Shown here piece by piece: positions 41,478-64,000 of a stretch of 64,000 nt of DNA. The notes beneath the pieces were generated by a model that was given only the letters and a program-made list of their open reading frames with translations, was not told where the DNA came from and searched no databases. The position numbers and the translations under genes were made by a program. Numbering within the stretch: position 1 is the first letter of the stretch; each line of letters starts with the position of its first letter. Source of the DNA: Candidatus Cloacimonadales bacterium (lineage in GTDB: Bacteria; Cloacimonadota; Cloacimonadia; Cloacimonadales; JAIOQZ01). The DNA lies in NCBI GenBank assembly GCA_963674825.1, contig OY771587.1:2528001-2592000 (forward strand), in the 5' to 3' direction.

Positions 41478-41496
41478 CTCAAATATCTCAATCCAA

Positions 41497-44381: not shown

Positions 44382-44391
44382 AATTACTTCA

Positions 44392-47366: not shown

Positions 47367-47643
47367 TGTAAAATCCTTTGGCACCGATAATGCATTGGGT
47401 TCTCAAGGCGTCAATGTTTATTTCTTTTGAAGCTCAACTTCTCTGTGTGCAGGTCTGGGTCTTGCTGATTTGCGGCGATAGTAAGGTGGATATGGGTGAA
47501 AGGGTTCGGAGTAAAACGGGAGTACTCGACTTCTGGGCGAGCTTCCTGGAAAAGCTGTCGGGACAGGGTAAAACGAAAACCGGTTGACAGAATTTCCACA
47601 CGCAACAATCTAAAACTTCAGATTATCCAACAAGGAGAAAACG

Positions 47644-50681: not shown

Positions 50682-50756
50682 GCATCCATACGAGAAAGCA
50701 GAAATTAGTATTTTGTTGTGATTCCTTAATGAACAATGCACGGATGGTGGTTCGAG

Positions 50757-53114
50757 ATGAAAAACTCTGTACTAATAACGTTGCTTATTTTATTTGTTGC
50801 ATGTCAATCGCTCATTGCGGTTCAAAAAGTACACCTCTGGCACACCATGGAGCCGAACAAACGCCCTCTGCTGGCGGAAGTCGTCGATCAATTCATGCAA
50901 GACAACCCCGATATCGAAGTTATTCTGCTATCGAAGAATGTTGAAGAGCTTCGAACCGGTTACCAGGCTGCTGCTGCCTTTACCGGCGGTGGACCGGAAC
51001 TGGTTTACGGCCCCATGGATCAGATCGGACCTTTCGAGGTCATGAAGCTCAAGAATAGCGATAAAAGCATCATCATGCCGCTGGAAGAGGTGTTCCCCGA
51101 AGAGTTTTTCGAGAAATTCACGCCCAACGGGCTGATCCGCTACAAGGGTCACCTTTACATGATTGCAGACCGCATTGGTAACCACCTTGCTTTACCTTAT
51201 AATAAAAGACTTTTCGACGAAGAAGGTATCCCCGGACCGCCTCAGACCATCGAAGAGCTGATCGAATATGGTCAGAAGCTTACAAAGGATACCGATGGTG
51301 ATGGTAACATCGATCAGTGGGGCCTCGTCTGGAACTACACAGAACCATTCTGGTACATTCCGTTCTTCGGCGGTTACGGTGGAAAGGTTTTCGATGAAAA
51401 CGGCAAACCAGAGCTGGGCTCGCAGGCTGCTGCCGACGCCTTCCGTTTGATCAAGGACATGCGCGACGAATATAAGATCATGCCGCCTGAATGCGATTAC
51501 GATATCGCGGACAATATGTTTAACCAGGGCAACGCCGGTATGATCATCAACGGCGATTGGTCGTGGCAGAAATACATGAACTCACCTGAAGTCGATTTCG
51601 GACTGGCGAAGATGCCGTATGTCCAGGCGGCAGGTCACTGGTGTAGTCCGATGGTGTCCGCAACGGGCTATTCCATCAATTCCAACACCAAGCCCGAGGT
51701 GATGGAAGCCACCAAGAAGCTCCTGGCCTGGCTTACCGGCGAGGAAGTCCAGAAGCGCTTCGCTTCCGAATTCAAGTCGATCCCGTCCATCAAGACCCTC
51801 TACAACGATCCCGAATTTACCAACGATCCCATCGTCAAGACATCCGCCGCGCAGATCGAAGCGGGACAGCTCATGCCGATTGTTCCCGAGATGCGCGCAG
51901 CCTGGGATGCGATGCGTCCAGCGCTGCAAAGCGTCGTCGGTGGAAACATGACACCCGAAGAGGCCGCCGCCTACCAGCAGAAACTCTGTGTCCAGAAAAT
52001 CAACGACATGTATGAGGTCGCCGGTGAGGGTAGCGGAAGCAGTATTACAAAGTATATCATTTATATTGTGGGTATTGCATTGGGTCTTTACCTGACGTAC
52101 CTGCTCATCTTCAAGTTCATCCTGGCACTGCTCAGGAATCCTTACACCATGGACTCGCGCAACGCCCGGTTCGCAATCCTGATCTCGATTCCCGCCGCCA
52201 TCGTGATGTTCGGCGTGGTGGTCTATCCGTTCTTCTACAACATCGTCCTCTCGTTTTCCAACATGAACATGACCAACGTCAATTCGTGGGAAGTGATCGG
52301 CGTGGAGCAGTACGGTAAGGTGTTGTGGGATTTCGATATGAGCTTCGCAGATTACCGCAGTTCGCTCGGAGATAATTCCGGCGTAGTTATTTTCGACTAC
52401 CTCAAGTATTTCTTCTCGCACCATAAATTCATCACCGTATTTATCAAGACGCTCATCTGGACGATCGTCAACGTGTTCTTCCATGTGACGCTGGGTGTGA
52501 TGCTGGCGATGCTGATGAACAGGAAGCTGCCCGGAAAATCGATTTTCCGCGTGCTGCTGATCCTGCCCTGGGCGGTTCCGCAGTACATTGTAGCACTTAC
52601 CTGGCGCGGGATGTTCATTTCGGACACAGGCGCTATTAACCTCATCCTGGGGCATCTCGGTATAGCCCCTGTAAGCTGGCTATCCGAACCGACGATGGCG
52701 TTCATGGCGGCGATCATCACCAATATCTGGCTGGGATTCCCATTCATGATGGTCATCGCGTTGGGAGGCTTACAGTCGATTCCCAAGGAGCTCTACGAAG
52801 CGGCGGAGATCGATGGCGCGTCCTCGTGGAAGCAGTTCTGGAACGTTACGGTTCCGCTGCTCAAGCCGGTGATGGTTCCCGCGATCACACTGGGTACGGT
52901 GTGGACTTTCAACAACCTCAACGTGCTGTGGTTGGTGACCAACGGCGGACAACCCGCGGATCACTCGCATATCCTGGTGACGTACGTCTATCGGGCTGCG
53001 TTCAACCTCTACCGGTACGGCTATGCAGCAGCCTTCAGCGTACTGATCTTCATTTTCCTGGCAATCTTCGGATTGACGTTCATGAATCGCAGCCAGGTCG
53101 CGGAAAAGGCATAG
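50757..53114 (+). CDS. Fused sugar-binding protein + CUT1 permease (MalE-MalF-like fusion)
   Basis: Signal peptide; family-1 SBP (PPQTIEEL, FNQG.AGMIINGDW, MP.VPEM.AAW); then TM segments, LILPWAVP and EAA loop ELYEAAEIDGAS, all in one ORF. Confidence 0.9.
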   Translation: MKNSVLITLLILFVACQSLIAVQKVHLWHTMEPNKRPLLAEVVDQFMQDNPDIEVILLSKNVEELRTGYQAAAAFTGGGPELVYGPMDQIGPFEVMKLKNSDKSIIMPLEEVFPEEFFEKFTPNGLIRYKGHLYMIADRIGNHLALPYNKRLFDEEGIPGPPQTIEELIEYGQKLTKDTDGDGNIDQWGLVWNYTEPFWYIPFFGGYGGKVFDENGKPELGSQAAADAFRLIKDMRDEYKIMPPECDYDIADNMFNQGNAGMIINGDWSWQKYMNSPEVDFGLAKMPYVQAAGHWCSPMVSATGYSINSNTKPEVMEATKKLLAWLTGEEVQKRFASEFKSIPSIKTLYNDPEFTNDPIVKTSAAQIEAGQLMPIVPEMRAAWDAMRPALQSVVGGNMTPEEAAAYQQKLCVQKINDMYEVAGEGSGSSITKYIIYIVGIALGLYLTYLLIFKFILALLRNPYTMDSRNARFAILISIPAAIVMFGVVVYPFFYNIVLSFSNMNMTNVNSWEVIGVEQYGKVLWDFDMSFADYRSSLGDNSGVVIFDYLKYFFSHHKFITVFIKTLIWTIVNVFFHVTLGVMLAMLMNRKLPGKSIFRVLLILPWAVPQYIVALTWRGMFISDTGAINLILGHLGIAPVSWLSEPTMAFMAAIITNIWLGFPFMMVIALGGLQSIPKELYEAAEIDGASSWKQFWNVTVPLLKPVMVPAITLGTVWTFNNLNVLWLVTNGGQPADHSHILVTYVYRAAFNLYRYGYAAAFSVLIFIFLAIFGLTFMNRSQVAEKA

Positions 53115-53124
53115 GGAGGGTCGC

Positions 53125-53961
53125 ATGAATAAGTTCAAGAAAACCATGACAGCAATAATCGTTTACGCGATCGTCCTCTTATTCGTGGTCATCGCGGTAT
53201 ATCCCGTAATGCGCATCCTGACCATCTCGCTGCGGCCGGGCGACAATCTGCTCAACCGCTCACTGGCGATTATCCCGCAGGATGCTACGTTCGATAACTA
53301 CGTTCGCTTGTTCACCGAAAAGCCATTCCTGCTCTGGATCCGCAACAGCCTGATGATCTCCATCACGGTGACGGTGATCGGCGTGGCGTTCGCCTCACTT
53401 GCTGGATACGCGTTCTCTCGGTATCGGTTCCCGGGTCGTAAGGCTGGTCTTCTAAGCCTGCTGATCACGCAGATGTTCCCGGCGACGATGCTGCTTCTGC
53501 CGCTATTTATCATGCTTTCCAAGCTGAATCTGATCAACAGCTTCCTCGGCCTGATCATCATGTACAGCGCGACGGCTCTGCCTTTCAGCATTTGGCTGAT
53601 GAAGGGCTATTACGACACGATCCCGTTCAGCCTCGAGGAATCGGCCATGGTGGATGGTGCGGGACGGTTTTACTCATTCTGGAAGATTATTATGCCGCTG
53701 GCAGCTCCAGCGCTGGTCATCACAGCGCTGTTCAGCTTCATGGCGGCTTGGAACGAATACATTGTGGCAGCACAGGTGCTGTGGTATGAGGAAATGTTCA
53801 CAATCCCATTGGGGCTCAAGAGTCTTCAGGGCAACATGACCACCGAATGGGGTATGTATGCCGCTGGTTCGCTCCTGATCAGCATCCCGGTGGTAGCGCT
53901 TTTCCTGTTCCTCAGCAGGTGGCTTGTGTCGGGTCTCACGCTTGGCAGTGTCAAGGGTTGA
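53125..53961 (+). CDS. Carbohydrate ABC permease (MalG-like)
   Basis: GYAFSRYRFPG, QMFP, KGYYDTIP.SLEESAMVDGA, LVSGLTLGSVKG. Confidence 0.93.
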   Translation: MNKFKKTMTAIIVYAIVLLFVVIAVYPVMRILTISLRPGDNLLNRSLAIIPQDATFDNYVRLFTEKPFLLWIRNSLMISITVTVIGVAFASLAGYAFSRYRFPGRKAGLLSLLITQMFPATMLLLPLFIMLSKLNLINSFLGLIIMYSATALPFSIWLMKGYYDTIPFSLEESAMVDGAGRFYSFWKIIMPLAAPALVITALFSFMAAWNEYIVAAQVLWYEEMFTIPLGLKSLQGNMTTEWGMYAAGSLLISIPVVALFLFLSRWLVSGLTLGSVKG

Positions 53962-54131
53962 GATTTCATAATGTATTCTTGACGAAACAAATATACGTGG
54001 TATTTTATTAGAGGAGTCAGGAGCCATGAGAAAGTTTCTCCTGGAATCTGACGAATATCCTTTGATTGATTCGAGGGCATAACCTCGGGGTGATGTTTTT
54101 TGCATACTAAAATAACAACAGGAGGTTCATC

Positions 54132-55514
54132 ATGAGACGAATCGGTATCGTACTGATCCTTGTTTCATTTGCAATGATCTTGAATGCGGAAATTGGATGG
54201 AGTGGTAATATCTGGCCGAATTCGGCTACGTTCCACGTCCCCACGGAAGACTTAACAATTTACTACCAGATCTGGAAAGACGGAGTGACCCCGGGTGATG
54301 GCCAGGGCGAAGACCTTGAAGCCAATTTCTACTACAGGCTTTCCGGCGAATCTGAATTTGCTTCGATGGCAATGTCCTATCTTGGTGAAGTCGGCAACAA
54401 CGACGAATACAACGTCATTATCGAAGCCGGTACATTTACCACCGGCGACCAGGTCGAATTCTTCTGCGAAGGGCACGACCTTGCTGACGACACTTATTCA
54501 TATGGAACTGACCAGGCTGGTGCAGGTCCATTCACTTCCGATGCTCCGGGAACCTATATCTTCGGTTCACCGCTGCAGCAGAATGTGACGGTTACCTTCC
54601 AGGTCGATCTGACACTGGTTGGCGTACAGGGCGATGTCTCGGTTGCCGGTTCGTTTAACGACTGGTCTGCCGGTACGAATATGCTTACCGATCAGGGCGA
54701 CAACATCTATGCAGGTGAAGTTCTCTTTTTAGCTGGTACAACCCCGATGATCGAATACAAATTCGTAAACGGCGGTAGCTGGGAAGATGCAATCGGTAAT
54801 CGCACGCTTGAGATCGACGACACCAACTCCACAATGGTTCTTGATGTTGTCTATTTCAACGACGACGATCCTGCAAACTACACCACCCAGGATGTAACGG
54901 TTACCATCAACTGTGATGTTGCCGATTCTGTGAATGCTGGTGTCGATTTCACAACCCTTTCCATTTGCGGTAGCGCATCTCCGCTCGATTGGGATTTCAC
55001 CGCGAACACCAATCCTCTTACCGACCAGGGTGACAACATCTGGTCGATCGACGTGACCTTCCCGGCTGGTTCCGAGAAGAACGTCGAATTCAAGTTCGCA
55101 CGCAACAGCATGGACGTGGAAGCTCCCGCTTACACCAACCACACCATGACGATCGACGACGCGGCTGCTACCCAGACAGTCGATGTAGTGTACGGTCAGA
55201 TGACCAACGACGTTGATGGCGGAACCGTTCCCGAATTCCAGACCGTCAATCTGCGTAACTACCCCAATCCCTTCAATCCTGAGACAACCATTGCTTTCAA
55301 CCTTGAGAAAGCACAAAACGTCGAGCTCGCGATTTACAATCTGAAGGGCCAGAAAGTTCGTTCACTCTTCCAGGGCAAAGCTCCGCAGGGTGAAACTCGC
55401 ATCGTATGGCACGGCCTGGACGATAACGGCAAGTCTGTTTCCTCTGGTGTGTACCTGATGCGCATCAAAGGTGGAAGATTCACAGCTTCCGGCAAAGTCA
55501 TCCTGCTTAAATAG
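54132..55514 (+). CDS. Secreted non-catalytic starch-binding protein (two CBM20-like domains) with T9SS type-A/FlgD-Ig CTD
   Basis: Signal peptide; VTVTFQVD...VAGSFNDW...EYKFVNG..WE and a second VTVT..D...EFKF domain; ends NYPNPFNPET...SSGVY..KVILLK. Confidence 0.78.
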   Translation: MRRIGIVLILVSFAMILNAEIGWSGNIWPNSATFHVPTEDLTIYYQIWKDGVTPGDGQGEDLEANFYYRLSGESEFASMAMSYLGEVGNNDEYNVIIEAGTFTTGDQVEFFCEGHDLADDTYSYGTDQAGAGPFTSDAPGTYIFGSPLQQNVTVTFQVDLTLVGVQGDVSVAGSFNDWSAGTNMLTDQGDNIYAGEVLFLAGTTPMIEYKFVNGGSWEDAIGNRTLEIDDTNSTMVLDVVYFNDDDPANYTTQDVTVTINCDVADSVNAGVDFTTLSICGSASPLDWDFTANTNPLTDQGDNIWSIDVTFPAGSEKNVEFKFARNSMDVEAPAYTNHTMTIDDAAATQTVDVVYGQMTNDVDGGTVPEFQTVNLRNYPNPFNPETTIAFNLEKAQNVELAIYNLKGQKVRSLFQGKAPQGETRIVWHGLDDNGKSVSSGVYLMRIKGGRFTASGKVILLK

Positions 55515-55523
55515 CCTCATTTA

Positions 55524-55553
55524 TTCTCCCTCCGTCAGAAGGCGGAGGGAGAA
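55524..55553 (+). other. Strong intergenic hairpin inside the operon
   Basis: TTCTCCCTCCGTC-agaa-GGCGGAGGGAGAA with no immediate poly-U. Confidence 0.6.
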
Positions 55554-55575
55554 AATTTATTTATTGGACGCGTCT

Positions 55576-56673
55576 ATGAAGTGGTTTCTTACACTGACAG
55601 TTCTCGTATTTTCAATCGCACTCACCGCCGTCACTGCATCCGACCTTTCGGGACGTATCGTCATTGACGGCTATAGCGACGATTTCGCAGCAGATGAATT
55701 CATTCTGAGCGATTCCACCGGCGTACCGCTCGAGTACTACAATGACTCTCGCTGGGGCGAAAACAACGACGTACGGCAAATCAAGGTAACATGGGATCAG
55801 GATTTCCTCTACGTCGCCGTCGATGCAACCTGCTGGGATAATAACGTCATCCTCTACATCGATATCTACGACGACTATGGTATTGTAGATATGGATGACA
55901 TGAACACCTGGAATCGTCTCTTCCGTTTTTACAACCTCAATCCGGATTTCTTTCTCGCGACCTGGGACACCAACACCAACCCGCAATTCTGGGTAGTGGA
56001 TGAAGGTTACACCGACTATGCGATCGAAGGTGGAAGCGCCAGCCTCGGCTATGAGGACTACGCTACTTTCGATACAGGCGGAAGCGGTCGTGCCCTGGAA
56101 GCGAAAATCCCTTGGGCCGAGCTCTACTACAGCGAAGAACGCTCCATGCTCAATTACCCTACCATCAAATTCGTATCGGTTATTACCGGTGGCGGTGACC
56201 ACACAGCCGGTCCCGATGCTGCGCCTGATAACCAGAGCGGTATGCCCTCCGATACGCAGACCGTTGTTCTGGACAACTACGTGGAAGTTCCTGTAGATCA
56301 GAACGGCGATGGTGAGCCGGATATGGGGATTATGCCCAATCGTTACACAACGTTTTTCAAGCGTCCACCGTTTGAATCCGAGGCCCTGAAGGTAGAACGT
56401 GTCGTTTTTCATAACGGCAAAGTCTTTGCGCCAACGCGTGGAGAAGCGCTCTCATTCAGCCTGGAAAGCAACCGCGGATCGGTTTTCGATGTTGAGATTT
56501 ATAATCTTGAAGGCAAGAAAATCGGTCTGGCGCCGCTGGTCGATGAACTCGAATGGGAATGGGCCGGACGTGATGAAGACGGAGATGTGGTGCCTTTCGG
56601 AATATACATCCTGCGTTTTATCGCAGATTCTGGAGAGGTCAGTCACAAGGAGGCGGTTGTTCTGATCAAGTAA
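55576..56673 (+). CDS. Secreted DOMON/CBM9-like protein with a variant (type-B-like) FlgD-Ig CTD
   Basis: Start MKWFLT; I.IDG..DDF, TWD.DFLYVAV, LEAKIPW.EL; C-term VFAP..GE...IYNLEG..WAGRDEDG..VPFGIY...VVLIK. Confidence 0.65.
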   Translation: MKWFLTLTVLVFSIALTAVTASDLSGRIVIDGYSDDFAADEFILSDSTGVPLEYYNDSRWGENNDVRQIKVTWDQDFLYVAVDATCWDNNVILYIDIYDDYGIVDMDDMNTWNRLFRFYNLNPDFFLATWDTNTNPQFWVVDEGYTDYAIEGGSASLGYEDYATFDTGGSGRALEAKIPWAELYYSEERSMLNYPTIKFVSVITGGGDHTAGPDAAPDNQSGMPSDTQTVVLDNYVEVPVDQNGDGEPDMGIMPNRYTTFFKRPPFESEALKVERVVFHNGKVFAPTRGEALSFSLESNRGSVFDVEIYNLEGKKIGLAPLVDELEWEWAGRDEDGDVVPFGIYILRFIADSGEVSHKEAVVLIK

Positions 56674-56743
56674 TCGGGTTGTGAAACATCCGGTGATTGG
56701 ACAGATGACCATCAATACAAAGAGATAAGGTTTGTAAGTTTTT

Positions 56744-57628
56744 ATGAGAAAAAAGCTGATTAAATCCAGCCCTGTGCATGGGCTGTTTATGCCGTTACTG
56801 ATCATCTTGCTGTTGGTTCCGGCAATCTCCCATGCCGACTTCAAGGGCATGAACCACGGTGCCCGTGCCTATGCGCTCGGAAACGCCTATACCGCTCTCA
56901 GCGATGATCCCACCGCGCTCTTCTGGAATCCTGCCGGCCTCACAAAGGTCAAGCAATACTCATTCACCATGTCTCACCAGAATCTCTATGGAATCTCCGG
57001 ACTGAACAGCGAGATGATCGCGTTTGCGCTGCCATTCCCGTATGTTCGCACAGGATTCGCGTGGACGCAGGTCAATCTTGAGGGTGAATATTACGAAGAC
57101 GTGTTCCATCTTGGAGCTGCATCCATTTTATGGCTGGGCGAAGTCCCGGTTCGCTTCGGCGCGACGCTGAAATATTTCCGCGTAAGTGTTCCTGGCTATG
57201 CAGACGCTAAAGAAGTCGGCAATCCCGACCTCGATTTCGGTGTGCAGGTCGAGCCCGTAAAGGAGCTGACCCTCAGCGTGGTTACCCGCAATATCTTCCA
57301 GCCGGAATTCAAGCTGGTGGAAGAGGGAGAAAAGCTTGATCGACAGTACGTCGTGGGAGCCTGCTACAGTTGGCGGGAGCTCGTCAATTTCCTCGCGGAC
57401 TACAAATGGGAAGGTGACGAAAGCCAGATGAATTTTGGCTGCGAGATGTGGTTTTACGATGTCTTTGCGCCGCGTATTGGTCTGAGTGGTGAAAATCTTA
57501 CCGCCGGCTTCGGCTTGAAATCGAGCTGGTGGACCATTGACGGAGCGGTTTACCAGCACAATGAGCTGGGCAGTACCTATCGATTGACCTTCGGACTGCG
57601 GTTCGATATGGACGACTTTGAACTATAA
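56744..57628 (+). CDS. PorV/PorQ (UPF0164)-family outer-membrane beta-barrel
   Basis: GARAYALGNAYTALSDDPTALFWNPAGL; C-terminal H.ELG.TYRL.FGLRF. Confidence 0.85.
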   Translation: MRKKLIKSSPVHGLFMPLLIILLLVPAISHADFKGMNHGARAYALGNAYTALSDDPTALFWNPAGLTKVKQYSFTMSHQNLYGISGLNSEMIAFALPFPYVRTGFAWTQVNLEGEYYEDVFHLGAASILWLGEVPVRFGATLKYFRVSVPGYADAKEVGNPDLDFGVQVEPVKELTLSVVTRNIFQPEFKLVEEGEKLDRQYVVGACYSWRELVNFLADYKWEGDESQMNFGCEMWFYDVFAPRIGLSGENLTAGFGLKSSWWTIDGAVYQHNELGSTYRLTFGLRFDMDDFEL

Positions 57629-57638
57629 GGATTACTCA

Positions 57639-59147
57639 ATGAAAAAACGAACGATCGCATTGATTCTGATCCTGTTGGTTGCCGCATTGCTGAAGGCCGG
57701 TCCTATTAAAATGGAAGGTTACCTGGAGGGGCAGTTCGGCAGAACCTACGACTCAGATGAATACAAATGGAATATGTGGGATCCGAATTACTATATCGAA
57801 ACCCGCTTCTTTTCCAGTCCTTTGAAAAACGCCGAGATGTTCTTCAAGATCTATGCGGATAACGACAAGGGAACCGACACGTATAAAAACTCCGGACGTG
57901 CGGAAGCGTTGCTTGGCGAAGGCCATGTCCAGTACCTCTACGAGAAATACGGTTGGGGTGCAAAGAGTGTCTTGTTCACCCGTGAAAGCGGTCACTACTG
58001 GACGGACGGCTCCATGCTCGGTATCGTCAATACCGGATCGGTGAACAACGGCGGTAACGGACAGGGTGTCCGCTTCGATACGTGGTATCCGTACGGTGGA
58101 AGCTTCACCTATGTTTTCTCTGATTTCTCATCAGGTGAAGGCGACGATGTGCACCTCATGCGCTATCGTCAGAGCCTATCGGAACGCGTACGCTTTGGCG
58201 TATTCTATCAGAGGAAGAATTATTCCACTGCGCAAGAGAACGACTACAACGAAGTCGCCGCAGTTGATTTCCATGCGGGTATGGGACGCTATATCCTTAA
58301 CACCGAATTTGCATGGAGCGACGTACCTGCTGAGGAAGATGTTCAGGCGCAGAATGACGAATATTCCGGCTTCAACGATTTCTTCAAATCAAATGTCGCC
58401 GCGAAAGCCGAACTCATGGGATTCCGCATTGGAACGGCGAAGCTCGGCTACATCCTTATGAAACCGGGTGTCTGGTCATACGGCGATACGTATCGCAATT
58501 ACATGGGAGAGGATCACCGCAATGAATACGGCTACTGGCTGGATACGAAGTATCTGGTTCCAAACCGCGCTATAACCATTACGTTGAACTACTCTACATG
58601 GCGCAATCAGGTGGCGGATACTGTCTATGTTACGACGCTGCAAGATACTATGTATGTCAGCAAACCCAAGGAAGTTTACAATCCAGGAACCAACCTCTAC
58701 AGCGAGATGTATATCGAGTTTGTGAAAGGCTTCAAGGGTAAGGTTTTCTTCAACAAAAAAGACGAAGAAACCAACAACACATTGGAAAAACACTACGACC
58801 TTTTCATGGAGCTCTCTGTGGAAAACCGGCTCGCCAAGCTCCTTACCCAGTTCAAGATCAAGGACATGGGAGAGGATTCGGAGGTGCAGCTTACCGGCGT
58901 GGAGGTCAGCGTTAATCTCACCGACAAATGGAAGTTCTTCATGCGCGGCATGATTGCCACGGACGATGTGGGTTCGCGTCACAGTATCTTCGGTGAGATT
59001 CAATACCGTCTCAGTGGCAACACCGAGCTCTACCTGCAATACGGACCAAGCTGGTGGGGTCAGTACGGACTGGTCAACGACGACAGTTTTGCAACCGGTG
59101 GCGACATGCAGAAGGAAGTGAAGCTGATCCTCAAAGGATGGTTCTGA
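57639..59147 (+). CDS. Hypothetical outer-membrane beta-barrel (barrel A)
   Basis: Signal peptide MKKRTIALILILLVAALLKA; amphipathic aromatic-rich strands; terminal Phe (VKLILKGWF). Confidence 0.65.
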   Translation: MKKRTIALILILLVAALLKAGPIKMEGYLEGQFGRTYDSDEYKWNMWDPNYYIETRFFSSPLKNAEMFFKIYADNDKGTDTYKNSGRAEALLGEGHVQYLYEKYGWGAKSVLFTRESGHYWTDGSMLGIVNTGSVNNGGNGQGVRFDTWYPYGGSFTYVFSDFSSGEGDDVHLMRYRQSLSERVRFGVFYQRKNYSTAQENDYNEVAAVDFHAGMGRYILNTEFAWSDVPAEEDVQAQNDEYSGFNDFFKSNVAAKAELMGFRIGTAKLGYILMKPGVWSYGDTYRNYMGEDHRNEYGYWLDTKYLVPNRAITITLNYSTWRNQVADTVYVTTLQDTMYVSKPKEVYNPGTNLYSEMYIEFVKGFKGKVFFNKKDEETNNTLEKHYDLFMELSVENRLAKLLTQFKIKDMGEDSEVQLTGVEVSVNLTDKWKFFMRGMIATDDVGSRHSIFGEIQYRLSGNTELYLQYGPSWWGQYGLVNDDSFATGGDMQKEVKLILKGWF

Positions 59148-59206
59148 TGAATACGACAAACTATATACATGATAAATATTTGAAAAACGATGGAACAGGA
59201 GATAGA

Positions 59207-61279
59207 ATGAAAGCGCCCCAAAAGAGTCGGCTTGGTAAAGCAACACGATCACTAACGCTGGTCTTACTCATTCTTCTGGCAGCGCCATGTTTATGGCTCC
59301 ATGCCGCTGTGAAAGAGGTTGCCGGCGGTGTACAGTTCCTGTATGACGCGCCGGATGCGCAGTCCGTCTCGGTGGCGGGGTCGTTCAACGAATGGAACAC
59401 CTCGGCGTCACCGATGAGCATGAACGATGACGGTATCTGGACCGTCACCGTCAAATTGCCTCCCGGAAAGCATCAGTACAAATTTGTGGTCGATGGTAAC
59501 TGGTATTTCGATCCCGATCATAGCAACCTGATGGACGATGGCTACGGCGGATCGAATTCACTGGTGGAGATAGACGGTAAAGGTAAGATGGTCGCTGCTT
59601 CGCAGGTTGAATTCAAGCGTGACGGCATCGCCAGCATGATCAACCCGAAGGTCTTTTTCAATGGCCGTTACTATGCGAAGTACATCTTCGAGAAAGAAAA
59701 GGACGAATCGCGCTATATGCTCGACAAACCGTTGCATGTTATCGATCTCGGCCTGAAAATCCGTTTCAACGACCAGTTTGAAGGCTACACGGTGATGAAT
59801 ATAAACAACACCGATGAAGGCACCGATATGTGGAAAACGCATCTTACCTTCAAACGGACCTATCTCAAGCTTAAAACAGAATATTTCAAGCTGACCGCTT
59901 TCGATAAATACGGCTTCATCACCCTTGACGATCCACTGCACATGGTAGGTGACATCGGCCGCTATGGATATGCCTTCGGTTACGACCAGCGCGGTGTGTA
60001 TGCAAAGACGGCAGATGAATTCTTCGACAACCTCATGGGCAGTGTTCCGATCCGCTTCGAAGTGGAAGGACTCTACTCCGACGACGCAGGCGATTCCGAA
60101 AACGATACAGGTGCAGGTCGCCTGAAAACAAGCTGGCTGGTTTCGCAGCGTGAGAACAACGAAAAGACCCTCCGTCTTGGTGGTACGATGTACGGAACAA
60201 GGATCTCATCATCAACGCTTCTGCAAAAGCATGACAGCTACGGTTTCGATATTGCATACGAACACAGCATGATGGGATCGAACTGGAAAGCTCCCATGAA
60301 GTTTATGGTCGATGCTGAATATTACTCCTTCGAAAACCGTGATAACTACAAGAATTACGGTCAGGAAAACTACGAGTACATTACGGAAGAAGAAAACACC
60401 TGGATGGAAGGTAATGCCGGTTGGTTTGGCCTTCAGGTCGATTTCCCGGCAGCGCTCAAGCTGAACGCCAACGTCCAGACCAATACTGTCGAATGGACGA
60501 TCGGTACTGGTGCAAATCCGAACGGACTTGTGCCGAATCCCGAGACGACCAAAGAAGAAGTTACACGAAATCGTATCGGTTTCGGCGCAGATTTCGAAGC
60601 AGGTAATTTCACTGCCAACATCGGCATGAAATACTGGACCTACGAATTCCCTGATTCGCTCGTAAGCTGGTACGACTACTACCAGTATATGGAACGCACC
60701 GACGGTAATGGCCGCTGGTTCCAGCGCTACTCCGATGTCCCGTTCAATCGCTACACCGTGCTTGGCTACGAGGAAGCGCTCACCTGGAATCTCTCGCTGG
60801 GATACAAGTTTGATCTGCTGTTACCGATCGATATCGATTGGGATGCGAACTTCACTCACCAGGGCTTCATGCGAGAAGCGAAGTTCATCGAGAACGTGAT
60901 TGCGGTGGGTATTCATCTCACCGATCAGTGGATGATTTGGTCAAGCACACGTGTGCCGTACTACAACGATCCCTACATGGGCCTCGAAACTGATTTCGGT
61001 AACGACGAAGATGTTTGGGTAAGCAACTACTCAGAACTCGCCTATATCCTTTCGGATCAGGTGCGCATCTCCTTCGGCTGGGGCGTCAATCCGCGCGCAC
61101 TCAACGCTGTCACGGATGAGTTCTATAACGGCGGACGCGACGAATTCCTGACTGAAGCTTCCGACTACGAAGAATACACCGAAAGTGCATACCTTGGAAC
61201 CGGTGAGAAGATTCGCCAGGCCGAGCAAGCGCTCGAGAACGAAAAACGCTTCATGCTGGAAGCTACCTTGAGGTTTTAG
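59207..61279 (+). CDS. CBM48/AMPK-beta-like glycogen-binding domain fused to a putative outer-membrane barrel (barrel B)
   Basis: SVSVAGSFNEWN...LPPGKHQYKFVVDGNW..DP....DDGYGGSNS; then ~540 aa of beta-strands ending FMLEATLRF. Confidence 0.72.
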   Translation: MKAPQKSRLGKATRSLTLVLLILLAAPCLWLHAAVKEVAGGVQFLYDAPDAQSVSVAGSFNEWNTSASPMSMNDDGIWTVTVKLPPGKHQYKFVVDGNWYFDPDHSNLMDDGYGGSNSLVEIDGKGKMVAASQVEFKRDGIASMINPKVFFNGRYYAKYIFEKEKDESRYMLDKPLHVIDLGLKIRFNDQFEGYTVMNINNTDEGTDMWKTHLTFKRTYLKLKTEYFKLTAFDKYGFITLDDPLHMVGDIGRYGYAFGYDQRGVYAKTADEFFDNLMGSVPIRFEVEGLYSDDAGDSENDTGAGRLKTSWLVSQRENNEKTLRLGGTMYGTRISSSTLLQKHDSYGFDIAYEHSMMGSNWKAPMKFMVDAEYYSFENRDNYKNYGQENYEYITEEENTWMEGNAGWFGLQVDFPAALKLNANVQTNTVEWTIGTGANPNGLVPNPETTKEEVTRNRIGFGADFEAGNFTANIGMKYWTYEFPDSLVSWYDYYQYMERTDGNGRWFQRYSDVPFNRYTVLGYEEALTWNLSLGYKFDLLLPIDIDWDANFTHQGFMREAKFIENVIAVGIHLTDQWMIWSSTRVPYYNDPYMGLETDFGNDEDVWVSNYSELAYILSDQVRISFGWGVNPRALNAVTDEFYNGGRDEFLTEASDYEEYTESAYLGTGEKIRQAEQALENEKRFMLEATLRF

Positions 61280-61288
61280 GGAGGAAGC

Positions 61289-61705
61289 ATGAAAAAAATC
61301 CTGATTCCTCTGGTCATCATCCTGCTAGTTGCGGGATGCGATCTTAACTTCATCAAGAAACGTCTTCCGCCGCCCCATAAGTCGAAAGAAGGCGTGATAT
61401 TCCAGTACGAGGCACCTTCAGCGAGAATGGTAACCCTGGCCGGCGACTTCCCGGATAACCTCTGGGGTGGAACCGCCTCCACCAGCGCACAATACGATCC
61501 CAACATCGATAAAATGTACGACGACGGTACGCACGGCGACCTCGAAGCTGGTGATGGCATCTGGACGCTTGTGAAAAAGCTCCCGCCCGGAAGATACACC
61601 TACAAATACGTGGTCGATCGTAATTCGTGGTTCACGGATCCCAACGCGCTCGATTACACAGATGATGGCTACGGCGGAAAGAATTCCGTACTGGTTATCG
61701 AATAG
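61289..61705 (+). CDS. Small lipoprotein with CBM48-like domain carrying a 'choice-of-anchor X'-like acidic insert
   Basis: VAGC lipobox; VTLAGDF..N.W; MYDDGTHGDLEAGDGIWT; LPPGRYTYKYVVD..WFTDP....DDGYGGKNS. Confidence 0.78.
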   Translation: MKKILIPLVIILLVAGCDLNFIKKRLPPPHKSKEGVIFQYEAPSARMVTLAGDFPDNLWGGTASTSAQYDPNIDKMYDDGTHGDLEAGDGIWTLVKKLPPGRYTYKYVVDRNSWFTDPNALDYTDDGYGGKNSVLVIE

Positions 61706-61722
61706 ATTATGAGGAACGAATT

Positions 61723-62691
61723 ATGAAATGGATTGCAAGCATATTCGCCATATTGTTGATCTTCGCCGCATGCGAAGATACGCCCACTGATAGCCCCTAT
61801 TCTCACAACGCCTCGATAGAGGGTTATGTGCAGTTTGAAGAGGCTACGACTGATACGTTGTCCGCAAACGTTGAGGTATATTTTACCACCGACAGCGATG
61901 AAACCATCAAGGTCGCCGAGACAACAACCGATCAGACCGGTTACTGGCGTGTGGATGGACTGACCGCAGATGAATATTTCATCTACTTCTATTCGGACAC
62001 CTACGGTAGCACCAACGCCACGGCTACGGCTGTAGCGAACGAGATCACCATGGTCGATACGGTCACGTTCGAGTACTCCGAACCGATCGAATTTCGCGAG
62101 ATCACTGTGGACGGCGATTCTACCGACTGGGATCAGCCCATATACGAGAACAATCATGCTTCCGACTGGGGCCCGAACAACTTCGAAAACCTCTATATGG
62201 CTCAGAACGAAACCCACCTCTTCATCTGCCTGACTGGTGAATTCTCGTCATCGGACAACGCGGTCAATATCTACCTCGATACCGACTTCGTTGCAGGAAT
62301 CGGTGTAAGGGATTTCTCTACCATCGCGGGTGGCGATCCGGGTAATCAGCTAAGAAAGAATGTCGTGGTCAATGCACCTGAGGCATTCGGTGCGGATGTG
62401 GCCCTCACCAACTGGGCGCTGCAGAATCCACTTCTGGTAAGCCTCGCCGACCCGACAGCTGTTGATTCGAATGTACTGGAGGCTGAAGTAGCCATGACGG
62501 CAAGCTGTATCGAGCTTGCGATTCCGTTTGAGCAGCTTTATGGGAGCAGTAGTGCTCCGAGCGGACAGAAAATTGCGCTGGTTGCGATCATCGGTGGTGG
62601 CGGCGACGCTTATTTCGCCGGTGACTCAATTCCGCAGCAAACGAATGTCGCCAGTTTCCAGAGCGTCATCGAAGCCATGTTATCTGAATAA
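61723..62691 (+). CDS. Lipoprotein with prealbumin-like domain and DOMON/CBM9-like domain
   Basis: FAAC lipobox; TTTDQTGYW..DGL; ITVDGD.TDW, IELAIPFEQL. Confidence 0.65.
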   Translation: MKWIASIFAILLIFAACEDTPTDSPYSHNASIEGYVQFEEATTDTLSANVEVYFTTDSDETIKVAETTTDQTGYWRVDGLTADEYFIYFYSDTYGSTNATATAVANEITMVDTVTFEYSEPIEFREITVDGDSTDWDQPIYENNHASDWGPNNFENLYMAQNETHLFICLTGEFSSSDNAVNIYLDTDFVAGIGVRDFSTIAGGDPGNQLRKNVVVNAPEAFGADVALTNWALQNPLLVSLADPTAVDSNVLEAEVAMTASCIELAIPFEQLYGSSSAPSGQKIALVAIIGGGGDAYFAGDSIPQQTNVASFQSVIEAMLSE

Positions 62692-62712
62692 TCAAGCATT
62701 GGAGGAGAGTCC

Positions 62713-64000
62713 ATGAGGAATATATTCATCTCTGTATTGTTTGCTGTCGTGCTCGTCATAGCCGGCTGCGCCACCCTCGGTTTCGGTGATTTCGAAGGAG
62801 AGACCCGTCATGCCGATTCAGGTGCGACCGAGCAGGTGAGCGCTGGCACAACTACACTAACCTATATCAACCCGAGCGCTAATAGCGTTCACATAGCCGG
62901 TTCGTTTAACGACTGGAATTCAAGTGCCACGCCGATGAAAAAAGTCGGTGAAAAATGGCAGGCGAATCTCGATCTTGAACCGGGTGAATACATGTACAAA
63001 TTCGTGATCAACGGTGCTGACTGGATCGCTGATCCTAAAAACGACAACACCGCGGACGACGGATATGGTGGTGTGAATTCTGTGCTGACCGTTACCGGTT
63101 CGGCAAAGAAGACCGATCGCGATTTCAAACCGAAGAAGGCCGAAGCATCAGATGGAACCGTGGTTACCTATAAAGATGGTGGCGCGACATCGGTATCGAT
63201 CGCGGGTGAATTCAATAACTGGGATATGGCCGCTAACCCGATGACCAAAGACGGCGACACCTGGTCGGTAGCGCTCGATCTGGCTCCGGGAGACTATATG
63301 TACAAATTCGTGGTCAACGGCTCCGACTGGAAGGTTGATCCGAACAATCCCAATACTGCTGATGACGGTTACGGCGGACAGAATTCAGTCCTGACAGTCG
63401 GCGGAACCGCGAAAAAGGCAGCCAAGAAAGAAGCTCCCAAGCCGGTGATGACCGAAGGCGGTACTGTGGTAACCTACAAGGACGCGGGTGCTTCATCGGT
63501 ATCGATTGCTGGTGAGTTCAACAACTGGGATATGGCCGCAAACCCGATGACCAAAGACGGCGACACCTGGTCGGTAGCGCTTGATCTGGCTCCGGGCGAC
63601 TACATGTACAAATTCGTAGTCAACGGTTCCGACTGGAAGGTTGATCCGAACAATCCCAATACTGCTGATGACGGTTACGGCGGACAGAACTCAATACTGA
63701 CTGTCGGTGGAACCGCGAAAAAAGCAGCCAAGAAAGAAGCTCCCAAGCCGGTGAAGATTGAAGGCAGCACCATCATGACATACAAAGACGCAGGCGCAAC
63801 ATCGGTATCGATCGCGGGAGATTTCAATAATTGGGATATGGCTGCAACTCCGATGACCAAAGACGGCGACACCTGGAAGGTTGGGCTGGACCTGGCTCCG
63901 GGTGAATACATGTATAAATTCGTAGTTAACGGCTCCGATTGGAAAACCGATCCGAAAAATGACAACAAGGCGGATGATGGCTACGGTGGACAAAACTCGG
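62713..64000 (+). CDS. Lipoprotein with at least 4 tandem CBM48/AMPK-beta-like domains; runs off the window
   Basis: ATG 62713 after GGAGGAG; MRNIFISVLFAVVLVIAGC lipobox; four SV.IAG.FN.W...PM.K.G..W...LDL.PG.Y.YKFV.NG.DW..DP....DDGYGG.NS units. Not in the ORF track because it has no stop. Confidence 0.88.
   Translation, partial: MRNIFISVLFAVVLVIAGCATLGFGDFEGETRHADSGATEQVSAGTTTLTYINPSANSVHIAGSFNDWNSSATPMKKVGEKWQANLDLEPGEYMYKFVINGADWIADPKNDNTADDGYGGVNSVLTVTGSAKKTDRDFKPKKAEASDGTVVTYKDGGATSVSIAGEFNNWDMAANPMTKDGDTWSVALDLAPGDYMYKFVVNGSDWKVDPNNPNTADDGYGGQNSVLTVGGTAKKAAKKEAPKPVMTEGGTVVTYKDAGASSVSIAGEFNNWDMAANPMTKDGDTWSVALDLAPGDYMYKFVVNGSDWKVDPNNPNTADDGYGGQNSILTVGGTAKKAAKKEAPKPVKIEGSTIMTYKDAGATSVSIAGDFNNWDMAATPMTKDGDTWKVGLDLAPGEYMYKFVVNGSDWKTDPKNDNKADDGYGGQNS
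63160..64000 (+). repeat. 306-bp intragenic tandem repeat
   Basis: ATGACCAAAGACGGCGACACCTGG at 63241, 63547 and 63853. Confidence 0.9.

What the first reader, a model, noticed from the sequence alone, without database searches (positions are those of the whole stretch)
50757..64000. Candidate new alpha-glucan (starch/glycogen) capture-and-import system without SusC/D or LamB
Seen: ten co-oriented, closely spaced genes. They encode a fused SBP-permease, MalG, two CTD-bearing secreted binders, a PorV-like barrel, two unknown barrels and three lipoproteins. Together they carry at least six CBM48-like domains (all ending DDGYGG.NS), two CBM20-like domains and two DOMON-like domains. No TonB-dependent receptor, SusD, maltoporin, glycoside hydrolase or ABC ATPase is in the window. 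Known: diderms import maltodextrins through SusCD (Bacteroidota) or LamB plus MalEFGK (enterobacteria). Inference: this is a third architecture, in which surface CBM lipoproteins and T9SS-displayed binders hold glucan and a new barrel pair feeds a tethered ABC binding domain.
Basis: partly seen in the sequence, partly recalled or inferred. Interest (0 to 1): 0.88.

Follow-up and report, generated by a model that had tools for sequence, protein, structure and literature searches.

The report
Starch-uptake locus with undescribed outer-membrane barrels
A gene cluster conserved in some Cloacimonadota bacteria encodes starch/glycogen-binding proteins, an amylase-type enzyme, a maltodextrin ABC importer and two outer-membrane barrels of no described family, which likely stand in for the known SusCD or LamB routes that carry sugar chains across the outer membrane.

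Summary
The ten co-oriented genes are real (50736 to the window end). One correction matters: the last "lipoprotein" is cut by the window end. In full it has 1281 aa, with six CBM48 modules and an intact GH13 neopullulanase-type catalytic domain, so the locus does contain a glycoside hydrolase.

The genome is a complete Cloacimonadota (Cloacimonadales) chromosome. The gene order D (CTD protein), E (PorV-like barrel), F (barrel), G (CBM48 + barrel), H (CBM48 lipoprotein), then GH13 is colinear in all 17 loci from species-representative genomes, as far as each contig reaches. It recurs in metagenome loci whose F is only 28-33% identical. MalE-MalF and MalG are usually adjacent, and MalK follows the GH13 gene in two relatives.

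F and G are remote paralogues. Both give confident models of large barrels (22 or more strands). Neither has a Pfam or NCBIfam family, and their fold matches are generic. The genome has no LamB or SusD.

The MalE-MalF fusion is not new: its binding domain matches PDB 6FFL at E = 2.8e-102.

That F and G carry maltodextrins is inference. I judge this a new variant of a known kind of system, of moderately high interest.

The parts
50736..53114 (+). A: MalE-MalF fusion (792 aa). An N-terminal signal/anchor is followed by a maltodextrin-type solute-binding domain, then the MalF-type permease.
   Evidence: Pfam SBP_bac_1 8.3e-28 and BPD_transp_1 4.4e-19. NCBIfam MalF 1.4e-53 and MalE 1e-34, both below the equivalog cut-offs. 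The binding domain matches PDB 6FFL 'Maltose/maltodextrin transport permease homologue' at 2.8e-102. All 120 clusters listed are fused homologues.
53125..53961 (+). B: MalG-type permease (278 aa).
   Evidence: NCBIfam MalG 3.9e-48, below the cut-off. BPD_transp_1. 74-96% identical in the Cloacimonadota loci that hold it.
54132..55514 (+). C: secreted starch-binding protein. It has two X25 stretches, a CBM20-like module and a T9SS type-A C-terminal domain. It is a variable member of the locus.
   Evidence: Pfam X25_BaPul_like 4.9e-8 (2 stretches), CBM_20 1e-5 and Por_Secre_tail 2.6e-8. TIGR04183 at 40.3 bits, above the cut-off of 23. Present at coverage of 0.78 or more in 8 of 17 loci.
55524..55553 (+). 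Terminator-like hairpin (13-bp stem, 8 G-C pairs, T-rich tail) between C and D. It possibly separates A-B-C from the D-J unit.
   Evidence: Consensus scan. Function not shown.
55576..56673 (+). D: secreted protein (365 aa). Its N-terminal domain has no family. Its C-terminus is a T9SS-type CTD.
   Evidence: No Pfam hit. The C-terminal 90 aa are 31% identical to C's CTD, E = 8e-10. Orthologues pass FlgD_ig (32.8 and 28.4 bits against 27). The Atlas lead to CBM9_1 + Por_Secre_tail clusters is a lead only.
56744..57628 (+). E: divergent barrel of the PorV/PorQ family (294 aa).
   Evidence: NF033709 at 3e-16, 59.9 bits against a cut-off of 90. Always directly upstream of F (15 of 15 loci with upstream DNA). 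Elsewhere in the genome, CTD-protein + PorV-like pairs include a C25 (PorU-like) + PorV-like pair.
57639..59147 (+). F: large outer-membrane beta-barrel (502 aa) of no described family.
   Evidence: AF2 pLDDT 90.3, pTM 0.82, about 24-26 strands, C-terminal Trp-Phe. No family at threshold in Pfam or NCBIfam. Best fold matches are the PapC and FimD ushers (Z 15.6-17.1), MtrB (15.2) and a SusC-like chain (14.6), with no gap to the rest of the list. 103 cluster representatives in 1.84 billion proteins. Single copy in the genome.
59204..61279 (+). G: N-terminal CBM48 (residues ~35-122), a flexible linker, and a 22-strand beta-barrel (residues ~148-690) that is a remote paralogue of F.
   Evidence: Pfam AMPK1_CBM 6.4e-17 and CBM_48 2.3e-12. 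AF2 pLDDT 87.1. The CBM48 part matches amylase, branching-enzyme and AMPK-beta CBM48s at Z 10-13 with rmsd 1.6-2.5 A. The barrel matches only generic barrels at Z 10-14.5. hhalign of G against F: probability 87%, E = 3.8e-6, 394 columns.
61289..61705 (+). H: small lipoprotein (138 aa) made of one CBM48. Its tether after the lipidated Cys is conserved (LNFIKKRLPPP).
   Evidence: Pfam CBM_48 24.0 bits against 22.4, and LPAM_1. The alignment of 20 orthologues has 59% mean column identity and a conserved post-Cys motif. H follows G in 16 of 17 loci. The 17th contig ends at G.
61723..62691 (+). I: lipoprotein (322 aa) with a CarboxypepD_reg-like domain and a C-terminal domain weakly similar to D. 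It is an optional member of the locus.
   Evidence: Lipobox IFAAC. CarboxypepD_reg in the window protein is below the cut-off. 3 of the 7 orthologues scanned reach the CarboxypepD_reg cut-off of 32.3 bits (39.6, 32.5 and 32.4 bits). D against I gives E = 0.005. Found in 10 of 17 loci.
62713..64000 (+). J: lipoprotein with six CBM48 modules and a GH13 neopullulanase-type enzyme. It has 1281 aa and runs past the window end to window-equivalent 66558 (G000:C1:2590713-2594558).
   Evidence: Pfam AMPK1_CBM (6 stretches), Alpha-amylase_N, Alpha-amylase 1.4e-63 and Malt_amylase_C. Best solved relatives are TVAII/neopullulanase, maltogenic amylase and cyclomaltodextrinase at 5.5e-111. DVAFNH, GFRLDV, GEIW and SHD are present. 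A J-like gene follows in 13 of the 13 loci with enough downstream DNA.

Best explanation
This is a conserved Cloacimonadota locus for using alpha-glucans (starch, glycogen, pullulan-like chains), and its two paralogous large outer-membrane barrels, F and G, likely form the passage that carries maltodextrins across the outer membrane in place of SusCD or LamB.

Shown by calls or read from the sequence:
- The gene set is a MalE-MalF fusion, MalG, a T9SS-exported X25/CBM20 protein (C), a second CTD protein (D), a PorV/PorQ-family barrel (E), barrels F and G (G carries an N-terminal CBM48), a CBM48 lipoprotein (H), a second lipoprotein (I), and a lipoprotein with six CBM48 modules and an intact GH13 neopullulanase-type domain (J).
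- The gene order is conserved across Cloacimonadota and in a more distant lineage.

Inferred mechanism:
1. C and D would be exported by the T9SS. D would probably stay on the cell, held by its retained CTD in the PorV-like barrel E, as PorU-PorV and PorZ-PorQ pairs do.
2. These proteins, and possibly lipoprotein I, would hold the glucan at the surface.
3. Chains or large dextrins would pass through F and/or G. The long, aromatic-rich and unusually conserved loops of these barrels would line the path.
4. On the periplasmic side, G's own CBM48, the CBM48 lipoprotein H and the CBM48 array of J would catch the chain.
5. J would cut it to short maltooligosaccharides.
6. The MalE domain tethered to MalF would pass these to MalFG, driven by a MalK-type ATPase encoded elsewhere in this genome.
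7. A GH77 amylomaltase would process them in the cytoplasm.
For: Domain content.

Conservation in 17 loci from species-representative genomes (16 titled Cloacimonadota, Cloacimonadales or Neomarinimicrobiota, one 'uncultured bacterium'):
- E-F-G are adjacent in 15 of 15 loci with upstream DNA.
- H follows G in 16 of 17 loci.
- GH13 J follows in 13 of 13 loci with enough DNA.
- MalEF and/or MalG lie upstream in 8 of 17 loci.

Metagenome loci seeded with distant F homologues (24 found; the 17 of at least 3.5 kb were analysed; F is 28-33% identical to the window's F):
- E lies directly upstream of F in 14 loci.
- A CBM48-led G-like ORF lies directly downstream of F in 14 loci.
- H follows in 9 loci.
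- MalEF + MalG are present in 3 loci.
- A GH13 catalytic domain is present in 3 loci.

Other evidence:
- MalK (ABC_tran + OB_MalK) directly follows J in 2 relatives (L024, L031). The window's genome has one OB_MalK ATPase elsewhere.
- LamB and SusD_RagB find nothing in the complete genome. The 4 to 5 TonB-dependent receptors lie elsewhere.
- GH77 is present.
- F and G give confident barrel models, are homologous to each other and have no known family.
- In G, the long loops on the side opposite the termini are more conserved than most membrane strands. Loop 480-522 has 0.71 identity and 12 aromatic residues in 43. Strands 7-17 have 0.37-0.48.
- The T9SS is present: a SprA-like ORF, at least 150 CTD ORFs and a PorU-like C25 + PorV-like pair.
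Against: - No experiment or expression data exist. No RNA run holds the locus.
- Channel function rests on context and on the absence of alternatives. General porins were not surveyed.
- Fold matches are generic, so they say nothing about the substrate.
- I could not inspect model coordinates, so lumen size, plugging and the side on which the CBM48 sits are inferred from strand and turn lengths only.
- J's closest solved relatives (TVAII, cyclomaltodextrinase) are mostly enzymes of small dextrins and cyclodextrins. The polymer-capture part of the model is therefore uncertain.
- Which face of the outer membrane H, I and J occupy is unknown.
- The locus is patchy: the G barrel is in 26 of 232 Cloacimonadota genomes and 12 of 66 genera. 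It is an accessory trait.
- F shows a weak, unresolved similarity to a DUF6029 barrel that sits beside unrelated CTD proteins. This hints that such barrels may serve T9SS cargo rather than sugar passage.
Confidence: 0.55

Rival explanations
1. The locus is an alpha-glucan utilisation locus, but F and G are not sugar channels. They would be outer-membrane scaffolds or export and anchoring devices for the cluster's own proteins. Examples are flipping or docking the lipoproteins H, I and J (as Slam or LptD-LptE-type barrels do), or holding T9SS cargo. Maltodextrins would cross through ordinary porins.
For: - H and J carry strongly conserved peptide motifs directly after the lipidated Cys (LNFIKKRLPPP in H, TLGFG.FEG in J). 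These look like docking or sorting signals.
- H is the best-conserved small protein of the module. It is 46-52% identical where F is 28-33%.
- F's best fold matches are barrels that hold or pass proteins: ushers, MtrB and LptD.
- A possibly related DUF6029 barrel elsewhere in the genome sits beside CTD proteins with no sugar link.
- CTD-protein + PorV-like pairs recur in the genome.
Against: - F and G occur once in the genome and only in this alpha-glucan context, although the genome has at least 150 CTD proteins and, presumably, many lipoproteins (not counted here). A general export device would be expected elsewhere too.
- G carries its own glucan-binding module.
- No other candidate outer-membrane maltodextrin route was found.
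Confidence: 0.25
2. The true substrate is cyclodextrin or short linear dextrin made by other community members. On this reading the locus is a Cym-like pathway (outer-membrane channel, binding protein, ABC permease, cyclodextrinase) and not a starch or glycogen polymer system.
For: - J's catalytic region is closest to TVAII/neopullulanase, maltogenic amylase and cyclomaltodextrinase (E = 5.5e-111 to 2.8e-106).
- It has the N-domain and C-domain typical of that subfamily.
- Some homologues are labelled cyclomaltodextrinase by their sources.
Against: - The locus has eight CBM48 modules. It also has X25/CBM20 modules on a secreted protein. Relatives carry roughly 1200-aa proteins with two X25 stretches and a CTD or dockerin, one of them with a weak GH57 match. 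All this points to polymeric or branched glucans.
- No CGTase is in the locus.
- F and G are unlike the 14-strand CymA. CymA appears only as one of many generic barrel matches (Z 10.7).
Confidence: 0.12
3. The cluster handles the cell's own alpha-glucan, for example export or remodelling of a capsular or periplasmic glucan, and does not take up an external one.
For: - CBM48 and GH13/GH57 modules also occur in glycogen-metabolism enzymes.
- One relative has a GH57 branching-enzyme-like gene inside the locus (L032).
- Large barrels such as AlgE and PgaA export polysaccharides, and these appear among the generic fold matches.
Against: - The locus is built around a binding-protein-dependent ABC importer (MalE-MalF, MalG, and MalK in relatives). 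Such importers work inward.
- No glycosyltransferase or synthase is in the cluster.
Confidence: 0.05

Closest known systems
Bacteroides starch utilisation system (SusCDEFG plus periplasmic SusA)
   Same: Both cluster surface glucan-binding proteins, a lipoprotein GH13, a large outer-membrane barrel and an inner-membrane importer in one substrate-specific locus. J's catalytic type (neopullulanase) is that of SusA; this comparison is recalled, not tested here.
   Different: There is no SusC (no Plug or TonB_dep_Rec Pfam hit in F or G) and no SusD anywhere in the genome. Binding modules are CBM48, X25 and CBM20, some delivered by the T9SS. The inner-membrane step is an ABC importer, whereas Sus uses an MFS permease (recalled). 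No TonB coupling is evident.
Enterobacterial maltose system (LamB, MalE, MalFGK2, MalS)
   Same: Both have a MalF/MalG-type permease pair, a MalE-type binding domain and a MalK-type ATPase (OB_MalK), with a dedicated outer-membrane protein encoded in the regulon.
   Different: There is no LamB. F and G have 22 or more strands against LamB's 18 (LamB figure recalled), and there is no sequence relation. MalE is fused to MalF. CBM-bearing lipoproteins, T9SS cargo and a PorV-like barrel have no counterpart.
MalE-MalF fusion transporter whose binding domain is solved as PDB 6FFL (recalled as the Bdellovibrio bacteriovorus system of Licht et al. 2019; that paper was not seen here)
   Same: The binding domain of A matches the 6FFL chain over its full length at E = 2.8e-102. 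Both have the same fused architecture.
   Different: Only the A-B part of the locus is covered. The barrels and the CBM48 and T9SS proteins are not part of that description, as far as I recall.
T9SS attachment pairs PorU-PorV and PorZ-PorQ
   Same: D (a CTD protein) is always followed by E (a PorV/PorQ-family barrel). The same genome has a C25 (PorU-like) + PorV-like pair and another CTD-protein + PorV-like pair.
   Different: E scores below the family cut-off (59.9 against 90 bits). D has no protease or PorZ-like domains. Binding of D to E was not tested.
Large protein-conducting or protein-filled barrels (PapC and FimD ushers, MtrB, LptD)
   Same: They resemble F in barrel size and overall shape (Z 15-17 over 360-392 aligned residues, rmsd 4.5-7.8 A).
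   Different: Sequence identity is 6-9% and there are no shared accessory domains. The scores fall off smoothly into other barrels, so this is a likeness of shape only.

Membership tests
TonB-dependent transporter / SusC | N-terminal plug domain (PF07715) and a TonB_dep_Rec barrel (PF00593) recognisable by sequence | tested here: not met
   The Pfam scan of F and G at E up to 0.1 gives neither family. The 41 F-family members give none either. PF00593 finds 4 to 5 other ORFs in the genome but not F or G.
TonB-dependent transporter / SusC | 22-strand barrel fold | tested here: inconclusive
   G has about 22 strands. TBDT barrels align at Z 10-13 over 368-399 residues, no better than ushers or porins. 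Foldseek TM is 0.24-0.33 for G and 0.30-0.46 for F.
Sus-like PUL | Adjacent SusC/SusD gene pair | tested here: not met
   SusD_RagB has no match in the whole genome. There is no SusC-type gene in the cluster.
LamB maltoporin | Match to the LamB family (PF02264) | tested here: not met
   No match in the genome at E up to 0.01; the control rings in E. coli. None in F or G.
OprB carbohydrate porin | Sequence family match, or a clear fold match | tested here: inconclusive
   The scans of F and G gave no Pfam hit other than weak, below-cut-off ones (F: DUF5095, 17 bits; G barrel region: DUF3074, 14.8 bits). OprB was not among them. OprB (4gf4) appears at Z 12.4 among many generic barrels.
PorV/PorQ family (protein E) | Score above the NCBIfam NF033709 cut-off (90 bits) | tested here: inconclusive
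   59.9 bits, E = 3e-16, in two stretches. The genome search scores it at 37.5 and 22.4 bits, below four clear PorV-family ORFs.
T9SS type-A CTD cargo (proteins C and D) | C-terminal Por_Secre_tail domain (TIGR04183 / PF18962) | tested here: met
   C scores 40.3 bits on TIGR04183 against a cut-off of 23. D itself scores 13.8 bits, below the cut-off. D's tail aligns to C's CTD at E = 8e-10. Two D orthologues pass FlgD_ig at 32.8 and 28.4 bits against 27.
Maltose/maltodextrin ABC importer (MalEFGK2 type) | MalF- and MalG-type permeases, a MalE-type binding domain and a MalK-type ATPase | tested here: met
   The best NCBIfam hits are MalF, MalE and MalG, though below the equivalog cut-offs. 6FFL matches at 2.8e-102, with Thermotoga MalE1 and E. 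coli MalE next. The ATPase is not in this locus: one OB_MalK ORF lies at G000:2394017. MalK is adjacent to the locus in two relatives.
GH13 neopullulanase / cyclomaltodextrinase / maltogenic amylase group (protein J) | GH13 catalytic domain with conserved regions I-IV and the Asp/Glu/Asp triad, plus the N- and C-domains of this group | tested here: met
   Alpha-amylase 216 bits, with Alpha-amylase_N and Malt_amylase_C. Best PDB matches are TVAII and neopullulanase at 5.5e-111. DVAFNH, GFRLDV, GEIW and SHD are present. The CAZy subfamily number was not assigned because dbCAN was not available.
CBM48 | Pfam CBM_48 / AMPK1_CBM above cut-off, and the beta-sandwich fold | tested here: met
   G: 62.0 and 47.5 bits. 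J: 6 stretches. H: CBM_48 at 24.0 bits against 22.4. The G domain superposes on solved CBM48s at Z 10-13, rmsd 1.6-2.5 A. Sugar binding itself was not tested.
   No such Pfam hit in D or I, nor in the 11 D and 7 I orthologues scanned. The only support is a language-model neighbourhood in which 30-35% of members carry CBM9_1.

The most novel reading that the evidence does not exclude
F and G are a new class of TonB-independent outer-membrane glycan translocon. A glucan chain threads through a 22-plus-strand barrel lined by conserved aromatic loops. It is pulled inward by a binding ratchet made of CBM48 modules on the periplasmic side: G's own N-terminal domain, lipoprotein H and the six-module arm of the GH13 enzyme. 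The module D-E-F-G-H would then be a self-contained 'utilisome' of FCB-group candidate phyla that evolved independently of SusCD.
Probability: 0.25. Interest if true: 0.85.

Novelty: new variant of a known kind. Interest (0 to 1): 0.6.

Why it matters
Two routes for alpha-glucans across a diderm outer membrane are well understood: SusCD in Bacteroidota and LamB in enterobacteria.

Cloacimonadota are common in anaerobic digesters, including those that process starch (passage in bioRxiv 10.1101/2021.10.08.463351). They are uncultured and thought of mainly as amino-acid and propionate fermenters (recalled).

A conserved five-gene outer-membrane module is welded to a maltodextrin importer and an amylase. 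It includes a barrel with a fused starch-binding module. This gives a concrete, testable candidate for a third route.

It also marks which Cloacimonadota lineages can feed on starch or glycogen: 26 of the 232 genomes searched.

The barrels are small enough to test in E. coli lamB mutants or in bilayers.

Tried and rejected
No pairing (G+H, F+H, D+E, F+G) was tested.
- No RNA holder is listed for the locus. Three DNA runs from one study hold it, so there is no expression evidence either way.
- Foldseek and VIA searches of both barrel models gave only generic barrels. No family stood out.
- Pfam on all 41 F-family members gave nothing. One member had a stray DUF5095 hit at 0.0048.
- An Atlas lead from F to DUF6029 was followed. 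hhalign of the F profile against the genome's single DUF6029 protein gives probability 38% and E = 3.3e-4, which is not enough to claim kinship.
- PDB sequence searches with C, D and I gave nothing usable.
- Naming the distant F homologues by cluster look-up gave only 'hypothetical protein'.
Narrower alignments worked.
- The earlier-findings index had nothing for this place, sequence or these words.
- Seven literature searches found no description of this barrel pair or module. I saw search listings, plus passages of two papers.
- The library lacks most subscription journals, and the recalled paper on the MalE-MalF fusion was not in it. 'Not in print' therefore means only 'not found in these searches'.
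- Model coordinates are not exposed to scripts. Pore size, plugging and domain placement could not be measured.

Full report
WHAT IS THERE

The window is G000:C1:2528001-2592000 of a single-contig 3.89-Mb genome, 99.6% complete. Record titles of its closest relatives read Candidatus Cloacimonadales or Cloacimonadota.

From 50736 to the window end, ten + strand ORFs follow each other with gaps of about 10 to 170 bases. I call them A to J.

- **A (50736-53114)** is a fusion of a family-1 solute-binding domain and a MalF-type permease. **B** is MalG-like.
- **C** has two X25 stretches, a CBM20 match just above the cut-off, and a T9SS type-A C-terminal domain.
- **D** has no Pfam family. Its last 90 residues align to C's CTD at E = 8e-10. 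Two of its orthologues pass the FlgD_ig model.
- **E** matches the PorV/PorQ family at E = 3e-16, but below the curated cut-off.
- **F** and the C-terminal 550 residues of **G** have no family. G begins with a clear CBM48.
- **H** is a 138-aa lipoprotein consisting of one CBM48.
- **I** is a lipoprotein with a CarboxypepD_reg-like domain and a second domain weakly similar to D (E = 0.005).
- **J** starts at 62713 as a lipoprotein with tandem CBM48 modules.

THE WINDOW EDGE

J is cut at 64000. In the genome it runs to 2594558 and has 1281 aa. It carries six AMPK1_CBM/CBM48 stretches, then Alpha-amylase_N, the GH13 catalytic domain (E = 1.4e-63) and Malt_amylase_C.

Its catalytic half is closest to TVAII/neopullulanase, maltogenic amylase and cyclomaltodextrinase (E = 5.5e-111 and below). 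The GH13 signature stretches DVAFNH, GFRLDV, GEIW and SHD are all present.

The next genes downstream (rubrerythrin, a beta-propeller CTD protein, prenyl-transfer enzymes) look unrelated. Upstream lie a Big_5 protein, riboflavin synthase and RecR.

CONSERVATION

A search of 41 related genomes found full-length G in 7 of them, each beside a GH13 with CBM48 repeats.

tblastn of the window's proteins on four fetched regions showed the whole order A-B-(C)-D-E-F-G-H-I-J kept, at 37-64% identity, in two other families of the order.

A scan of species-representative genomes with a barrel-only alignment of G gave 17 loci. Fifteen are titled Cloacimonadota or Cloacimonadales, one Neomarinimicrobiota and one 'uncultured bacterium'. 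In these:
- E-F-G are adjacent in 15 of the 15 loci that hold upstream DNA.
- H follows G in 16 of 17. The 17th contig ends at G.
- A J-type GH13 follows in 13 of the 13 loci with enough downstream DNA.
- I is present in 10.
- MalEF and/or MalG lie upstream in 8.

Extra genes appear in relatives' loci:
- MalK (ABC_tran + OB_MalK) lies directly after J in two.
- A protein of about 1200 aa with two X25 stretches lies after J in three. Two of these proteins carry a CTD. The third carries a dockerin and is the only one with a weak GH57 match.
- A GH57 branching-enzyme-like gene lies inside the locus in one.

A metagenome scan seeded with distant F homologues gave 24 loci. I analysed the 17 of at least 3.5 kb and dropped the 7 shorter ones. 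F there is only 28-33% identical to the window's F, yet:
- E lies directly upstream in 14.
- A CBM48-led G-like ORF lies directly downstream in 14.
- H follows in 9.
- MalEF + MalG are present in 3.
- A GH13 catalytic domain is present in 3.

The core D-E-F-G-H module is therefore old and moves as a unit with alpha-glucan genes.

Within the phylum the G barrel is patchy. It is in 26 of 232 genomes (22 of 151 good-quality ones) and in 12 of 66 genera. It was not found in the largest family sampled (0 of 98).

THE BARRELS

With alignments of 49 and 41 homologues, AlphaFold2 gave confident models: G at pLDDT 87.1 and pTM 0.75, F at pLDDT 90.3 and pTM 0.82.

G shows a CBM48 sandwich (residues 35-122), a low-confidence linker, about 22 long strands and a C-terminal Phe. 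F shows about 24-26 strands and ends in Trp-Phe.

Profile comparison makes F and G remote homologues (87% probability, E = 3.8e-6, 394 columns).

Fold searches give only generic likenesses:
- Foldseek lists TonB-dependent receptors, LptD and ushers, at TM 0.2-0.33 for G and up to 0.5 for F.
- The exhaustive aligner puts porins, ushers, VDAC and TBDT barrels at Z 10-14.5 for G.
- It puts ushers, MtrB and a SusC-like chain at Z 14.6-17.1 for F. Scores fall off smoothly in both lists.
- G's N-domain, by contrast, superposes on solved CBM48s at Z 10-13 with rmsd about 2 A.

F's family has 103 representatives among 1.84 billion clustered proteins. The ten looked up are unnamed or 'hypothetical'. 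F occurs once in this genome.

Reading the G model's strands and turns gives a topology. The short turns and both chain ends fall on one side, by rule the periplasm. The long loops fall on the other side.

Those loops are better conserved than most of the membrane strands. Loop 480-522 has 12 aromatic residues in 43 and mean identity 0.71. Strands 7-17 have 0.37-0.48.

That pattern suits a sugar-contacting surface, and it places G's CBM48 in the periplasm. Both points are inference, because I could not see the coordinates.

THE REST OF THE PATH

- The binding domain of A matches PDB 6FFL, 'Maltose/maltodextrin transport permease homologue', at E = 2.8e-102 over its whole length. I recall this entry as the MalE domain of a natural MalE-MalF fusion from Bdellovibrio, but I did not see that paper.
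- All 120 clusters listed in the search with A are fused homologues (49-91% identity). Their source labels include Cloacimonetes, Marinimicrobia, Bacteroidota and Ignavibacteria. The tethered binding domain is therefore neither new nor special to this locus.
- The genome has one OB_MalK ATPase 134 kb away, a GH77 amylomaltase, two further GH13 ORFs, and 4 to 5 TonB-dependent receptors elsewhere.
- It has no LamB and no SusD.
- It has a T9SS: a SprA-like 2043-aa ORF, at least 150 CTD-bearing ORFs and four clear PorV-family ORFs.
- A C25 (PorU-like) protein sits next to a PorV-like barrel, and another CTD protein sits next to a further PorV-like barrel. The fixed D-E pairing resembles these.

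MECHANISM

Shown: the parts list and its conservation.

Inferred: the sequence of events.
1. T9SS cargo C and D, with D probably held by E, would bind glucan outside the cell.
2. F and/or G would pass chains or dextrins across the outer membrane.
3. The CBM48 modules of G, H and J would catch them.
4. J would cut them.
5. The tethered MalE would hand the products to MalFG-MalK.

I put about 0.9 on 'alpha-glucan utilisation locus'. I put about 0.55 on the whole model with F and G as the passage.

The main rival (0.25) is that F and G are scaffolds or export and docking devices for the cluster's own lipoproteins or T9SS cargo. Three observations favour it:
- H and J have conserved post-Cys motifs.
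- F's nearest shapes are barrels that handle proteins.
- F has an unresolved hint of kinship with a DUF6029 barrel that sits beside unrelated CTD proteins.

Smaller rivals are a cyclodextrin or short-dextrin pathway (0.12) and handling of the cell's own glucan (0.05).

NOVELTY

The kind of system is known: a substrate-specific glycan-uptake locus. The ABC part, the GH13, the CBM48s and the T9SS tags are members of known families.

What is new is the outer-membrane module. It is a pair of paralogous large barrels without plug, TonB box or any family, one fused to a CBM48. It is locked in synteny with a PorV-like barrel, a CTD protein and a CBM48 lipoprotein.

Seven full-text searches found no description of it. 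The library misses most subscription journals.

I rate it a new variant of a known kind, with interest 0.6.

NOT DONE

No complex prediction was possible because the tool's queue was full. There are no expression data. dbCAN subfamily typing was not available.

Noticed in passing
window 55524-55553: A strong terminator-like hairpin (13-bp stem, 8 G-C pairs, T-rich tail) sits between C and D. The conserved D-J core may be a transcription unit separate from A-B-C.
   Followed up: no
window 61337-61375 (H residues 17-29), and H orthologues in L020-L055: The peptide right after the lipidated Cys of H (C-[SDE]-LNFIKKRLPPP) is nearly invariant across very distant loci. J orthologues likewise share C-x-TLGFG-x-FEG. 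These look like docking or sorting signals of unknown meaning.
   Followed up: partly
G000:C1:85263-86759 (- strand; outside the window), locus L063: This is the genome's only DUF6029 barrel (498 aa). It lies next to three T9SS CTD proteins (Omp28-like and PKD). The protein-atlas search placed F near DUF6029 clusters, but hhalign gives only 38% probability.
   Followed up: partly
G000:C1:868076-874092 (L066) and 1443339-1446224 (L064), outside the window: A 1667-aa Peptidase_C25 + CTD protein (PorU-like) lies directly beside a PorV-like barrel. A second CTD-like protein of 667 aa lies beside another PorV-like barrel. 'CTD protein + PorV paralogue' pairs recur in this genome.
   Followed up: partly
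L024:16317-17405, L031:10931-11857, L028:15957-19544, L029:15685-19323, L036:9255-12662, L032:9801-11552: Relatives extend the locus. MalK-type ATPases follow the GH13 gene in two. Proteins of about 1200 aa with two X25 stretches and a CTD or dockerin follow in three, one with a weak GH57 match. One locus holds a GH57 branching-enzyme-like gene.
   Followed up: partly
window 49187-50494: A 435-aa protein with two Big_5 Ig-like domains lies just upstream of A. A homologue (73% identity) sits in the same place in one same-genus locus (L021). It was not seen in more distant loci.
   Followed up: no
window 36927-47384 (- strand): A housekeeping block holds PTS enzyme I, HPr kinase, a ribosome hibernation factor, lipoyl synthase, dihydrolipoyl dehydrogenase-like, RpoN, LptB, LptA/LptC-like and a KdsC-like HAD phosphatase. 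HPr kinase and enzyme I next to RpoN are the usual rpoN-operon neighbours.
   Followed up: no
L001:5226-8252 (window-equivalent 67226-70252): A 1008-aa secreted protein with a beta-propeller, a CarboxypepD_reg domain, an fn3 domain and a T9SS CTD lies two genes downstream of J, after a rubrerythrin. No link to the locus is evident.
   Followed up: no
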